From a virus (Duplodnaviria > Heunggongvirae > Uroviricota > Caudoviricetes): 19,156 nt of DNA. The translations under genes and the position numbers were made by a program. Numbering within the stretch: position 1 is the first letter of the stretch; each line of letters opens with the position of its first letter. The stretch lies in the IMG/VR virus record IMGVR_UViG_2548876862_000001, positions 1 to 19,156 of that record. One strand, given 5' to 3'. Shown here piece after piece: positions 16,259 through 17,132 of this stretch. The notes beneath the pieces are model-generated. The model was not told the origin of the DNA, searched no databases, and was given only the letters and a program-made list of their open reading frames with translations.

Positions 16259-16432
16259 ATGACTGAAAAGATATCTTCCATCAAGCCGCGTCAGGTTCGT
16301 TTTACAGAAAAGGTTGATTCACATATCCGCGAATCAGCAAAAAGATGCCATAGGTCAATTCAGGCAGAGATAGCTTATCGAATGGAGTTATTGATGAAAC
16401 TTGAGGCAAAGGGCGATGTTGTCATCCAATAA
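16259..16432 (+). CDS. arc: Arc-like ribbon-helix-helix repressor, 57 aa
   Basis: ATG 16259 follows AGGAG (16248-16252) by 6 nt. Translation MTEKISSIKPRQVRFTEKVDSHIRESAKRCHRSIQAEIAYRMELLMKLEAKGDVVIQ shows the strand-helix-helix pattern and a GRS-x-N-x-EI-like motif (HRSIQAEI) as in P22 Arc. Below the ORF-track cutoff. Confidence 0.7.
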   Translation: MTEKISSIKPRQVRFTEKVDSHIRESAKRCHRSIQAEIAYRMELLMKLEAKGDVVIQ

Positions 16433-16471
16433 AAATAGTGAAGCCCGGCAGTGCGCGAACACAAACCGGGC
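16426..16471 (-). terminator. Candidate terminator for a leftward antisense transcript
   Basis: GCCCGG (16443-16448) pairs with CCGGGC (16466-16471) around a 17-nt loop. On the minus strand it is followed by UUCACUAUUUUUAUU. Confidence 0.3.
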
Positions 16472-16505
16472 CTCTATGTCAGTAACCGTATGCAAGGAAA
16501 CTAAC
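16428..16505 (-). ncRNA. Candidate sar-like antisense RNA 1, complementary to the RBS and start of the Bro-N antirepressor gene
   Basis: Minus-strand extended -10 TGCTACAAT (plus 16512-16520) inside codons 3-5 of the gene, facing the hairpin plus U-rich tail at 16426-16471. Predicted length about 75 nt, covering the SD at 16494-16498. Confidence 0.3.
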
Positions 16506-17132
16506 ATGAATATTGTAGCAAAATCAGATTACAACTTCCACGGAGTTGAGTTGGTGCCCACCCGTGATATGCATGGTGTTTGGTTTACATCATCTAATAT
16601 TGCATCTGCACTTAAATATGCAAATAGCCGTGCAGTAACAATGATTTATAACAAGTATAGCGATGAGTTTAGCGCCGGGATGACTCAGGTACTCGAAGTG
16701 AGTACCTCAGGAAATTATCGCAAAAAAGTGCGAGTTTTCTCACTACGCGGTGCCCACCTAATCGCGATGTTTGCTCGCACTCCGGTAGCCAAAGAGTTCC
16801 GCCGCTGGGTGCTGGATATTTTGGATCGGCAGGCAGAATGCTCACCGATTGCAAAACAGTTCACTGACGAAGAGCTGGTTAATCTCTGCTACTTACAATT
16901 GTGGATGGAGAAGAGTCAACAAATGTGCAAACACATCTACCCAGGAATGAAGCAAATTGGTTCTGAGCTTTCAGGAAGAATTTACGATATTGCATATGAG
17001 ACTCGCTATATGTCAGAAGAAACCAAGAAATCACTTCTTCGTGAAATGAAGAATCTTGATACCAACAATTTTGTCGTAAAGAACGCTCAGCCAATGCTGA
17101 CAAAACTGCGCGGCGAGGAATGGATTCATTGA
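16506..17132 (+). CDS. Antirepressor-like protein with N-terminal Bro-N/AntA-type domain
   Basis: ATG 16506 follows AAGGA (16494-16498) by 7 nt. YNFHGVELVPTRDMHGVWFTSSNIASAL...VFSLRGAHLIAMFARTPVAKEFRRWVLDIL looks like Bro-N by eye. The track start TTG 16401 overlaps arc and is not preferred. Confidence 0.75.
   Translation: MNIVAKSDYNFHGVELVPTRDMHGVWFTSSNIASALKYANSRAVTMIYNKYSDEFSAGMTQVLEVSTSGNYRKKVRVFSLRGAHLIAMFARTPVAKEFRRWVLDILDRQAECSPIAKQFTDEELVNLCYLQLWMEKSQQMCKHIYPGMKQIGSELSGRIYDIAYETRYMSEETKKSLLREMKNLDTNNFVVKNAQPMLTKLRGEEWIH

What the first reader, a model, noticed from the sequence alone, without database searches (positions are those of the whole stretch)
16426..16520. Candidate sar-like antisense RNA over the first antirepressor RBS
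An extended -10 element (TGCTACAAT) on the minus strand is embedded in codons 3-5 of the Bro-N gene. About 45 nt to its left a GC-rich hairpin is followed, on the minus strand, by a U-rich tract. This would produce an antisense RNA of about 75 nt covering the SD and start codon, the same logic as P22 sar RNA acting on ant.
Basis: partly seen in the sequence, partly recalled or inferred. Interest (0 to 1): 0.6.

Follow-up and report, generated by a model that had tools for sequence, protein, structure and literature searches.

The report
Divergent sar antisense RNA gene
This is an unannotated, divergent relative of phage P22's well-known sar antisense RNA, predicted to block translation of the prophage's antirepressor, so it is a new example of a known mechanism rather than a new one.

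Summary
The element is a homologue of P22 sar, not just an analogue.

On the minus strand there is a promoter: -35 TGGAAG (16540..16535), a 17-nt spacer, and TGcTACAAT (16520..16512). It lies inside codons 3-12 of the antirepressor gene, whose ATG is at 16506, not 16507. The predicted +1 is G at 16505.

The predicted RNA is 71-75 nt (16505 to about 16431). It folds into a 5' hairpin carrying the anti-SD and a GC-rich terminator hairpin followed by UUUUU. This is the architecture and position of annotated P22 sar.

A covariance model was built only from a third subtype. It finds one significant site in the window (this element, E~8e-7) and one in the P22 locus (annotated sar, E~3e-5). Covariation is strong, and G.U pairs outnumber A.C 182 to 8, which places the fold on the antisense strand.

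In 43 relatives fetched by their terminator side only, -10 positions T-12, A-11, A-9 and T-7 are invariant while the encoded amino acids vary.

Rfam's sar model misses this subtype but accepts sibling subtypes that share the same promoter block. RefSeq annotates no RNA here.

A second, parallel antisense unit sits over the second antirepressor gene. Transcription itself is untested.

The parts
16535..16540 (-). -35 element of the Psar-like promoter (TGGAAG), inside codons 10-12 of ant1
   Evidence: Sequence. In 43 terminator-anchored relatives, -35..-30 reads T36 G33 G42 A38 A40 A25/G18 with a 17-nt spacer. The wobble of codon 11 (TTC), which supplies G-33, carries 1.84 bits. P22 has GTGTTA at the same position.
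16512..16520 (-). TG-extended -10 of the Psar-like promoter (TGcTACAAT; hexamer 16517..16512), the reverse complement of ant1 codons 3-5
   Evidence: T-12, A-11, A-9 and T-7 are invariant in 43 of 43 relatives chosen without reference to the promoter. Wobble positions of codons 3 and 4 carry 2.00 bits against a mean of 0.32 elsewhere. The offset from the ATG is the same as P22 Psar TGCTATACT.
16431..16505 (-). Predicted sar-like antisense RNA, 71-75 nt; +1 = G at 16505, 3' end within the U run
   Evidence: Fold dG -33.3, z -5.9. Model R1 hit at 16430..16506(-), 33.7 bits, E 8e-7. Global alignment to P22 sar gives 50 of 77 identical columns, z 6.1. The ends are inferred from P22's annotated sar.
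16478..16505 (-). Hairpin 1 (GUUAGU...ACUGAC), presenting the anti-SD UUCCUU in its apical part
   Evidence: All 5 closing pairs covary across the family, e.g. GUCGA/UCGAU against GUUAG/CUGAC.
16440..16474 (-). Hairpin 2, the GC-rich terminator stem-loop
   Evidence: 7 of its 14 pairs change on both sides; 95.5% of cells are paired. G.U outnumbers A.C 182 to 8, so the fold is selected on this strand.
16431..16435 (-). U run of the terminator tail; it abuts and overlaps the stop codon (TAA 16430..16432) of the arc-like gene
   Evidence: T is at least 90% conserved in these columns in the promoter-anchored set. P22 sar likewise ends inside the arc stop codon.
16494..16508 (+). Target: SD (AAGGAA, 16494..16499) and AUG (16506..16508) of antirepressor 1
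   Evidence: The SD is fully inside the region complementary to the RNA.
16506..17132 (+). Antirepressor 1 (Bro-N + P22_AR_C domains)
   Evidence: Pfam Bro-N 1.9e-10 and P22_AR_C 2.8e-14. PHROG 245 'anti-repressor Ant' 4e-54.
16259..16432 (+). 57-aa Arc-position gene, a likely ribbon-helix-helix protein, first gene of the operon
   Evidence: Pfam ParD_like 8e-4, below cutoff. Its subfamily profile against P22 Arc gives hhalign E 1.4e-4, probability 52%. A pooled profile of proteins at this position hits Arc 1arq at 1e-14.
16181..16209 (+). Pant-like promoter (TTGACT, 17 nt, AATAAT), convergent with the Psar-like promoter about 300 bp away
   Evidence: Promoter scan, 10 of 12 matches. The spacing matches Pant-Psar in P22. 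Function is inferred.
17150..17261 (-). Second, parallel antisense unit over antirepressor 2. It has -35 GTGACA (17261..17256), TGcTACATT (17241..17233), predicted +1 about 17226, terminator hairpin 17185..17159 and UUUUCUUUUU
   Evidence: The promoter and terminator are conserved in protein-anchored relatives with different N-terminal peptides and, in one lineage, a different terminator stem.
17221..17946 (+). Antirepressor 2; the true start is ATG 17221, not the GTG 17170 of the mechanical ORF
   Evidence: PHROG 1726 'anti-repressor' 5.5e-101, aligned from residue 18 of the long ORF. SD AAGGAA at 17209..17214. Relatives start at this ATG.

Best explanation
The region encodes a sar-type cis-antisense RNA of a P22-like E. 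coli prophage.

A sigma-70 promoter is written on the opposite strand of the first 12 codons of the antirepressor gene. It fires leftwards from G16505 and makes an RNA of about 71-75 nt. That RNA ends at a hairpin plus U run overlapping the stop codon of the upstream Arc-like gene.

The RNA is perfectly complementary to the antirepressor mRNA leader, including the Shine-Dalgarno sequence, and it displays the anti-SD in its 5' hairpin. Pairing with the leader blocks 30S binding and so blocks Ant translation.

This silences transcripts that the protein repressors acting at the Pant-like promoter cannot stop, for example residual Pant transcripts and late-operon read-through. It thereby prevents unwanted prophage induction.

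Shown here: the sequence features, their homology to P22 sar, structural covariation on the antisense strand, and nucleotide-level conservation of the promoter.

Inferred from P22: that the RNA is transcribed, its exact ends, and that it represses translation.
For: 1. Identical anatomy to annotated P22 arc-sar-ant, with the -10 at the same offset from the ATG.
2. Same two-hairpin fold as P22 sar: dG -33.3, z -5.9, and much weaker on the sense strand.
3. Model R1 was built from 21 sequences of another subtype. It gives exactly one significant hit in the window (16430..16506, E 8e-7) and one in the P22 locus (annotated sar, E 3e-5); all other hits have E>1.
4. Across 51 distinct versions, 95.5% of cells are paired against 82% in shuffles and 30-53% in slid controls. 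13 of 22 pairs are compensatory. The covariation score is 0.418 against 0.192, reached by 0 of 500 shuffles.
5. There are 182 G.U cells against 8 A.C cells, so the fold is on the antisense strand.
6. In 43 distinct relatives fetched through the terminator side only, T-12, A-11, A-9 and T-7 are invariant. Codon 3 encodes I/S/N/T and codon 4 encodes V/I/L. Wobble information is 2.00 bits at codons 3 and 4 against a mean of 0.32. When the ATG shifts, the -10 keeps 6-7 nt from the hairpin-1 5' end, not from the ATG.
7. Rfam RF00262 (sar) accepts sibling subtypes L002/SPN3UB (48.0 bits) and L013 (59.4 bits), which carry the window's exact promoter block.
8. The literature states that sar blocks the ant RBS (PMC7968456), and that immI with arc, ant and sar is common in P22-like phages and is also read through from PLATE (PMC12111858).
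Against: - There is no transcript evidence for this element.
- Rfam's curated sar model does not reach even E<=10 on it.
- The -35 is weak (TGGAAG, 3 of 6), and the simple promoter scan does not list the site.
- The U run is 4 nt away from the stem, so termination efficiency is uncertain, although P22 sar has the same layout.
- The structural alignment was fitted by the model and leans towards its structure. This is mitigated by alignment-free folds: all 55 distinct versions show both hairpins, 49 as exactly two top-level hairpins.
- Part of the -35 conservation may reflect the conserved Phe of the Bro-N motif.
Confidence: 0.85

Rival explanations
1. The RNA is made but acts mainly by a route other than RBS occlusion. 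One option is convergent-promoter transcriptional interference with Pant or late read-through. Another is creation of an RNase III site that uncouples arc-like and ant expression. RBS occlusion would then be secondary.
For: The Psar-like and Pant-like promoters are convergent and about 300 bp apart. The RNA's 3' end overlaps the arc-like stop codon, so a 75-bp perfect duplex would span the intercistronic junction.
Against: Covariation preserves a specific two-hairpin RNA with the anti-SD in the 5' hairpin. Pure promoter interference would not need this. P22 sar is described as blocking the ant RBS (PMC7968456). The mechanisms are not mutually exclusive.
Confidence: 0.08
2. No antisense RNA is made. 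The hairpin is only an mRNA element (an attenuator or stabiliser between the arc-like gene and ant), and TGCTACAAT is a by-product of codon choice at an AT-rich translation start.
For: TGNTANNNT is no more frequent than chance in the window. The promoter scan did not call the site, and the terminator scan did not call the hairpin. AT-rich early codons are common.
Against: G.U outnumbers A.C 182 to 8, which puts the fold on the minus strand. The sense strand has no U run after the hairpin and folds weakly, z -1.9. Exactly the four key -10 positions are invariant while neighbouring wobble positions drift. The -10 tracks the hairpin rather than the ATG. The element is homologous to an experimentally defined RNA gene.
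Confidence: 0.04
3. The element is a decaying relic in this particular prophage and no longer functions.
For: 'Ant morons' are in rapid flux, with degraded ant genes in several P22-like phages (PMC2629481). In E. coli HS the neighbouring second antirepressor is broken by an IS3.
Against: In the window all parts are intact, and both antirepressor ORFs are full length. The same 85-nt RNA-region sequence recurs unchanged in 18 fetched copies (the window plus IMG/VR loci). The 161-bp region is 100% identical in at least 11 complete E. coli genomes.
Confidence: 0.03

Closest known systems
sar RNA of Salmonella phage P22 (immI region; Rfam RF00262)
   Same: - The position is the same, between an Arc-type gene and the antirepressor gene.
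- The orientation is the same.
- The promoter lies inside the first ant codons, with the -10 at the identical offset.
- +1 lies next to the AUG complement.
- The fold is the same two-hairpin shape.
- The terminator tail overlaps the arc stop codon.
- 50 of 77 aligned positions are identical.
- One independent model detects both.
   Different: - It scores below any reportable level with the Rfam model.
- Hairpin 2 has an internal loop and a different apical part.
- The -10 is TACAAT rather than TATACT, and the -35 is TGGAAG rather than GTGTTA.
- The regulated protein is a 208-aa Bro-N/P22_AR_C antirepressor, not the 300-aa P22 Ant.
- The divergent neighbour is a CI/LexA-like S24 repressor rather than Mnt.
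- The Arc-position protein is only distantly Arc-like.
sar elements of other subtypes that Rfam accepts, e.g. Salmonella phage SPN3UB (a non-P22-like temperate phage)
   Same: They have the identical 41-bp promoter and ant-start block (window 16504..16544, 97.6% identity), the same architecture, and an Arc-like gene upstream.
   Different: The RNA body differs: a GUCGA/UCGAU stem 1 and a continuous 15-bp stem 2. The downstream antirepressor body is also different, so the promoter block is a mosaic joint.
c4 antisense RNA of phages P1/P7, which controls the icd-ant antirepressor operon (from my own knowledge, not tested here)
   Same: A small phage RNA keeps an antirepressor silent by occluding a ribosome binding site.
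   Different: c4 is processed from the same transcript as its target and acts through short complementary boxes. It is not a convergent, fully complementary cis-antisense gene, and no sequence relation was seen.
SymR (antisense RNA to the symE leader in E. coli; Rfam RF01809)
   Same: It is a cis-antisense RNA of about 77 nt over an RBS with two hairpins. It gave the only weak Rfam match to the window element, end to end at 16437..16508(-).
   Different: The score is 21.8 bits against a gathering score of 61, E 0.11 in a 601-nt search. The context is unrelated. This is a resemblance of shape only.

Membership tests
sar antisense RNA (P22 immI type) | A cis-antisense gene lying between an Arc-type small repressor gene and an antirepressor gene, opposite to the ant operon | tested here: met
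   The arc-like ORF is at 16259..16432, the RNA at 16505..16431(-), and ant1 starts at 16506. This is the same order as annotated P22. Arc-likeness of the 57-aa protein is probable only.
sar antisense RNA (P22 immI type) | Promoter (Psar) embedded in the first codons of ant, with +1 adjacent to the AUG complement | tested here: met
   The -10 has the same offset as P22. The -10 core is invariant in 43 of 43 promoter-independent relatives, and wobble positions are constrained. Promoter activity itself was not measured.
sar antisense RNA (P22 immI type) | RNA of about 70 nt with a 5' hairpin over the anti-SD and a 3' GC-rich terminator hairpin | tested here: met
   Folds, covariation and the strand test.
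sar antisense RNA (P22 immI type) | Detectable sequence and structure homology to P22 sar | tested here: met
   Independent model R1 hits the window at E 8e-7 and P22 sar at E 3e-5. The pairwise alignment has z 6.1. Intermediate subtypes link the two.
Rfam RF00262 (sar) as currently modelled | Score at or above the curated gathering threshold of 43 bits | tested here: not met
   There is no RF00262 hit on the window at gathering or at E<=10. The positive control, P22, scores 97.8 bits. 4 of 19 subtype representatives pass, and the window's subtype does not. This is a limit of the model's breadth, not a failed biological criterion.
sar antisense RNA (P22 immI type) | The transcript exists and represses Ant translation | not testable with these tools
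   This needs RNA-seq, a Northern blot and reporter assays.
SymR (RF01809) | Score at or above the gathering threshold of 61 bits; antisense to symE | tested here: not met
   21.8 bits, E 0.11. The target is an antirepressor, not symE.
Sense-strand intrinsic terminator of the arc-like gene | Hairpin followed by a U run on the + strand | tested here: not met
   The + strand reads ...CCGGGCCUCUAUGUCAG after the stem. The sense fold has z -1.9. G.U/A.C asymmetry favours the minus strand.

The most novel reading that the evidence does not exclude
The sar family may be far larger and more modular than the curated Rfam family.

- It would be a dual-coded cassette made of the Arc-gene stop, the RNA, and a promoter written in the wobble positions of the first 12 antirepressor codons.
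- It would be spread through temperate phages of Enterobacterales, both P22-like and non-P22-like.
- It would be fused to many unrelated antirepressor bodies, with the 41-bp promoter block serving as the recombination joint.
- It would be present twice, as diverged paralogues, in operons with two tandem antirepressors, so that each cistron has a private antisense silencer against late-operon read-through.

Most of these copies are unannotated.
Probability: 0.5. Interest if true: 0.45.

Novelty: new member of a known kind. Interest (0 to 1): 0.3.

Why it matters
For this window, it settles what the feature is: a sar gene that current annotation pipelines miss. Rfam gives no hit, and RefSeq shows only two CDSs at this site in the genomes listed, out of 77 complete E. 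coli genomes that carry it.

It also revises a published inference. The 'HS-1 type' ant moron was said to control its antirepressor differently from P22. The sar layer is in fact retained, and an Arc-position ribbon-helix-helix-like gene is present.

More generally, the data give a clean example of a promoter encoded in wobble positions of an overlapping gene. They also supply a broader seed alignment that could widen the Rfam family.

The layout offers a convenient experiment: Psar can be killed by synonymous changes. The mechanism itself is textbook, so the advance is incremental.

Tried and rejected
- Rfam at gathering threshold on the whole window gave nothing. In permissive mode the only hits were symR at 21.8 bits and a snoRNA. 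Both were rejected as chance or shape resemblance.
- The generic promoter/terminator scan did not call either part of the first unit. Its rules exclude a 3-of-6 -35, and the hairpin as the scan defines it (loops of 3-8 nt, T run starting 0-2 nt after the stem).
- The TGNTANNNT count showed the motif alone is uninformative.
- MAFFT plus RNAalifold on raw sequences recovered only 4 pairs, because the subtypes were mis-registered by 1-3 columns. This was replaced by alignment-free folds and a model-based alignment.
- The genome-contig scan with the terminator pattern returned mostly chance hairpins from unrelated phyla. After model filtering, only the Enterobacterales hits were kept. Weak hits of 24-32 bits were disregarded, because the pattern pre-selects half of the model.
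- Schaefer & McClure 1997 (PMC1369469) is not held, so details of the sar pairing pathway rest on reviews and on my own knowledge.
- Single-linkage clustering of downstream proteins chained nearly everything into one cluster, so it gave no useful count of antirepressor families.
- Model R1 does not detect the second unit, so its relation to the first rests on anatomy and a shared CCTATGTCA segment only.
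Full report
**What the window is.** The window carries the late-operon structural genes of a P22-like E. coli phage. The best matches are Escherichia phages APC_JM3.2 and IME10, at about 95-96% identity over 63% of the window. An 'ant moron' or immI-like region follows, between the gp16-type injection gene and the tailspike. That region reads as follows:
- sieA-like gene, 14963..15457 (-)
- CI/LexA-like repressor with HTH_3 and Peptidase_S24 domains, 15518..16159 (-)
- a 57-aa gene in the Arc position, 16259..16432 (+)
- antirepressor 1 (Bro-N + P22_AR_C), 16506..17132 (+)
- antirepressor 2 (PHROG 1726), 17221..17946 (+)
- an Mnt-like gene, 17973..18311 (-)

**The observation.**
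- TGCTACAAT lies on the minus strand at 16520..16512. It is the reverse complement of codons 3-5 of antirepressor 1, whose ATG is at 16506 rather than 16507.
- The hairpin GAGGCCCGG...CCGGGCUUC is at 16474..16440.
- Four bases after the stem there is a UUUUU run at 16435..16431. This run overlaps the TAA stop of the upstream gene.
- The motif TGNTANNNT alone means nothing: 25 matches against 33 expected.
- The generic scans missed both parts.
- The 75-nt minus-strand sequence folds at -33.3 kcal/mol, z = -5.9. Its complement reaches only z = -1.9.

**Comparison with P22.** The RefSeq record of P22 annotates arc, then the sar RNA on the opposite strand. That RNA runs from one base before the ant ATG to inside the arc stop codon. 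Psar is annotated inside the first ant codons. Three points stand out when the sequences are placed side by side:
- P22 reads ATG AAT AGT ATA GCA and the window reads ATG AAT ATT GTA GCA. The -10 elements TGCTATACT and TGCTACAAT therefore sit at the same offset.
- The linker ...GTCAGTAA... is shared.
- Both terminator stems begin GAAGCCC or GAGGCCC and end GGGCUUC.

The two RNAs fold into the same two-hairpin shape. They align with 50 identical columns of 77, z = 6.1 against shuffles. By analogy, the window promoter is:
- -35 TGGAAG (16540..16535)
- a 17-nt spacer
- TG (16520..16519)
- -10 TACAAT (16517..16512)
- +1 at G16505

**Rfam.** Rfam's sar model (RF00262) scores P22 at 97.8 bits. It does not report the window even at E <= 10. 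The model is simply narrow. On 19 loci representing the subtypes found below, it accepts four: 59.4, 59.1, 48.0 and 47.8 bits against a threshold of 43. Two of these, phage SPN3UB (L002) and L013, carry exactly the same antirepressor start and promoter block as the window. The window's element therefore belongs to a continuous family, part of which is already curated as sar.

**Independent detection.** An exact scan for the first 23 nt of the antirepressor gene found 114 viral contigs. These gave 53-54 distinct versions of the upstream 82-85 nt.

Each version was folded on its own. All 55 distinct versions, P22 included, show the two hairpins, 49 of them as exactly two top-level hairpins. The first paired base is the base next to the AUG complement. 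The second hairpin ends at nt 64-67 (65-66 in most). Mean dG is -31.0 on the antisense strand against -20.7 on the sense strand.

I built a covariance model (R1) from 21 sequences of one subtype. That set excludes both the window's subtype and P22. With filters off, R1 finds one significant site in the window (16430..16506 minus, 33.7 bits, E about 8e-7). It finds one in the 7-kb P22 locus (2021..2091 minus, the annotated sar, E about 3e-5). Every other hit has E > 1.

**Covariation and strand.** The figures below come from the model-based alignment of 51 distinct sequences.
- 95.5% of cells are paired, against 82% in column shuffles and 30-53% when partners are slid by 1-3 columns.
- 13 of 22 pairs show changes on both sides, including all five closing pairs of hairpin 1.
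- The covariation score is 0.418 against 0.192, reached by 0 of 500 shuffles.
- The alignment is fitted to the model and so leans towards its structure. The alignment-free folds agree with it.
- G.U pairs number 182 and A.C mismatches 8. The fold is therefore maintained on the antisense RNA, not on the mRNA.

**The promoter, tested on loci chosen without it.**
- *How the loci were chosen.* A second scan was anchored only on the terminator side, using the arc stop plus the hairpin arms. R1 confirmed 68 elements in 88 new loci. This left 43 distinct elements in the standard register, none carrying the 23-mer of the first scan.
- *The -10.* In these 43, T-12, A-11, A-9 and T-7 are invariant (43 of 43).
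- *The -35.* Positions -35..-30 read TGGAAR with a 17-nt spacer.
- *The TG extension.* T-15 is present in only 16 of 43, so the TG extension is not a family feature.
- *Codon view.* Codon 3 is always AxT, encoding Ile, Ser, Asn or Thr. Codon 4 is always xTA, encoding Val, Ile or Leu. The wobble positions of codons 2 and 5 vary freely.
- *Wobble information.* It is 2.00 bits at codons 3 and 4, against a mean of 0.32 for codons 2 and 5-42. The only other high value is 1.84 bits at codon 11 (TTC), which supplies the G of the -35.
- *When the ATG shifts.* Where the ATG is displaced relative to the hairpin (L151, L185, L133), the -10 keeps 6-7 nt from the first base of hairpin 1, not from the ATG.
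- *Reading.* This is the signature of selection on a promoter for the antisense RNA, superimposed on coding sequence.
- *The converse test.* The U run is at least 90% conserved in the promoter-anchored set.

**Mechanism.** The protein repressors can only act at the Pant-like promoter (TTGACT, 17 nt, AATAAT, 16181..16209). The operon, however, lies inside the late operon, so it is also read through from upstream. PMC12111858 describes this for P22-like immI regions. An antisense RNA fully complementary to the leader, with the anti-SD UUCCUU in its 5' hairpin, would silence antirepressor translation on any such transcript. This is what sar is reported to do in P22 (PMC7968456). I consider this the working mechanism with about 85% confidence. 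Transcription, the exact ends and the effect on translation are inferred, not shown.

**Rival readings.**
- A purely sense-strand structural element. The G.U asymmetry, the absence of a sense-strand U run and the behaviour of the -10 all argue against it.
- Action mainly through transcriptional interference or RNase III. This cannot be excluded, but it does not explain the conserved RNA fold.

**Mosaicism.**
- Similarity to the closest annotated phage (JEP4, 98.7%) stops at 16544, four bases beyond the -35.
- Otherwise unrelated Salmonella phages (SPN3UB, S107, S135 and others) share only 16504..16544 at 97.6%.
- The promoter block is therefore a conserved island between exchangeable RNA bodies and exchangeable antirepressor bodies.
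- Downstream proteins include Bro-N types and P22-Ant types.
- Upstream proteins are several ribbon-helix-helix families. Their pooled profile hits Arc at 1e-14 and Mnt at 1e-7.
- The window's own subfamily matches P22 Arc only at E 1.4e-4, probability 52%.

**Distribution and annotation.**
- The 161-bp region occurs in 77 of 5,426 complete E. coli genomes, with at least 80% coverage in 47. These include strain HS at 100% identity.
- RefSeq annotates only the two CDSs there.
- E. coli HS carries the 'HS-1' moron type. Villafane et al. 2008 described it as apparently lacking arc and so controlling ant differently from P22 (PMC2629481). The present analysis shows that the sar layer is retained.
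- In species-representative genomes, model-confirmed strong hits are all Enterobacterales: Atlantibacter, Yersinia, Serratia, Rahnella and Rouxiella.

**A second unit.**
- *Layout.* Antirepressor 2 has its own convergent arrangement on the minus strand:
  - -35 GTGACA (17261..17256)
  - a 17-nt spacer
  - TGcTACATT (17241..17233)
  - a predicted +1 near 17226, inside the CDS, so this RNA would cover the AUG as well as the SD
  - a 5' hairpin
  - a canonical terminator at 17185..17159 followed by UUUUCUUUUU
- *Conservation.* 80 relatives were fetched by the protein. In them GTGACA, the 17-nt spacer and TGnTAnnnT are kept while the N-terminal peptide changes (MTLKNVAN, MLTDNLAV, MTEVTLAV, MSEITLTN). 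One lineage has a different terminator stem at the same place.
- *Caveats.* R1 does not detect this unit and its fold z-score is only -1.9. It is a probable diverged paralogue, less well supported than the first.

**Verdict.** The element is a new, unannotated member of the known sar kind. Interest is modest. The family-level picture is the part worth keeping: a wobble-encoded promoter, modular spread, and duplicated units.

Noticed in passing
window 17150..17261 (minus strand) and 17221..17946 (+): There is a second sar-like antisense unit over the second antirepressor gene. It has GTGACA, a 17-nt spacer, TGcTACATT, a predicted +1 near 17226 (inside the CDS, so it would cover AUG and SD), and a terminator at 17185..17159 followed by UUUUCUUUUU. 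It is conserved in protein-anchored relatives. Neither Rfam nor model R1 detects it. The mechanical ORF start (GTG 17170) is wrong; the real start is ATG 17221.
   Followed up: partly
window 15518..16159 (-) and 17973..18311 (-): The gene divergent from the arc-like/ant operon is a CI/LexA-like repressor with an S24 autopeptidase domain. P22 has mnt at that position. An Mnt-like gene sits instead at the far end of the region, next to the tailspike. This suggests the antirepressor operon could be derepressed by RecA-stimulated self-cleavage, giving SOS-inducible antirepression.
   Followed up: no
window 16504..16544: This 41-bp island is exactly the Psar-like promoter plus the ant start. It is 97.6% identical in otherwise dissimilar Salmonella phages (SPN3UB, S107, S135, S137, KK-2013). 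Similarity to the closest phage, JEP4, ends at 16544. The promoter block looks like a mosaic joint between exchangeable modules.
   Followed up: partly
window 16151..16232: Candidate operator repeats surround the Pant-like promoter (TTGACT, 17 nt, AATAAT, 16181..16209). They are a direct repeat AAAATTCATT at 16151..16160 and 16173..16182, an imperfect inverted repeat at 16205..16215 / 16222..16232, and by eye the palindrome ACTCAtacTGAGT between the -35 and -10.
   Followed up: no
window 16259..16432; L286 (E. coli HS) 2860..3033: The 57-aa gene in the Arc position is annotated 'hypothetical protein' in RefSeq and is of unknown function in PHROGs (phrog_10182). It has a ribbon-helix-helix-like pattern and a weak profile match to P22 Arc (E 1.4e-4). 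The published statement that the HS-1 type moron lacks arc may need revisiting.
   Followed up: partly
L286 (E. coli HS, NC_009800) 3822..5623: In E. coli HS the second antirepressor gene is truncated by an IS3-family insertion, while the first unit (arc-like gene, sar-like element, ant1) is intact and identical to the window.
   Followed up: no
L151, L185, L133, L146, L153 (IMG/VR loci): These sar-like elements lie upstream of P22-Ant-type antirepressors (MSIATA.., MNSIAILEA.., MTSIAIFEA..). In L151, L185 and L133 the ATG is displaced by 1-3 nt relative to hairpin 1, yet the -10 stays 6-7 nt from the hairpin's first base. This is useful natural variation for defining the transcription start.
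   Followed up: partly
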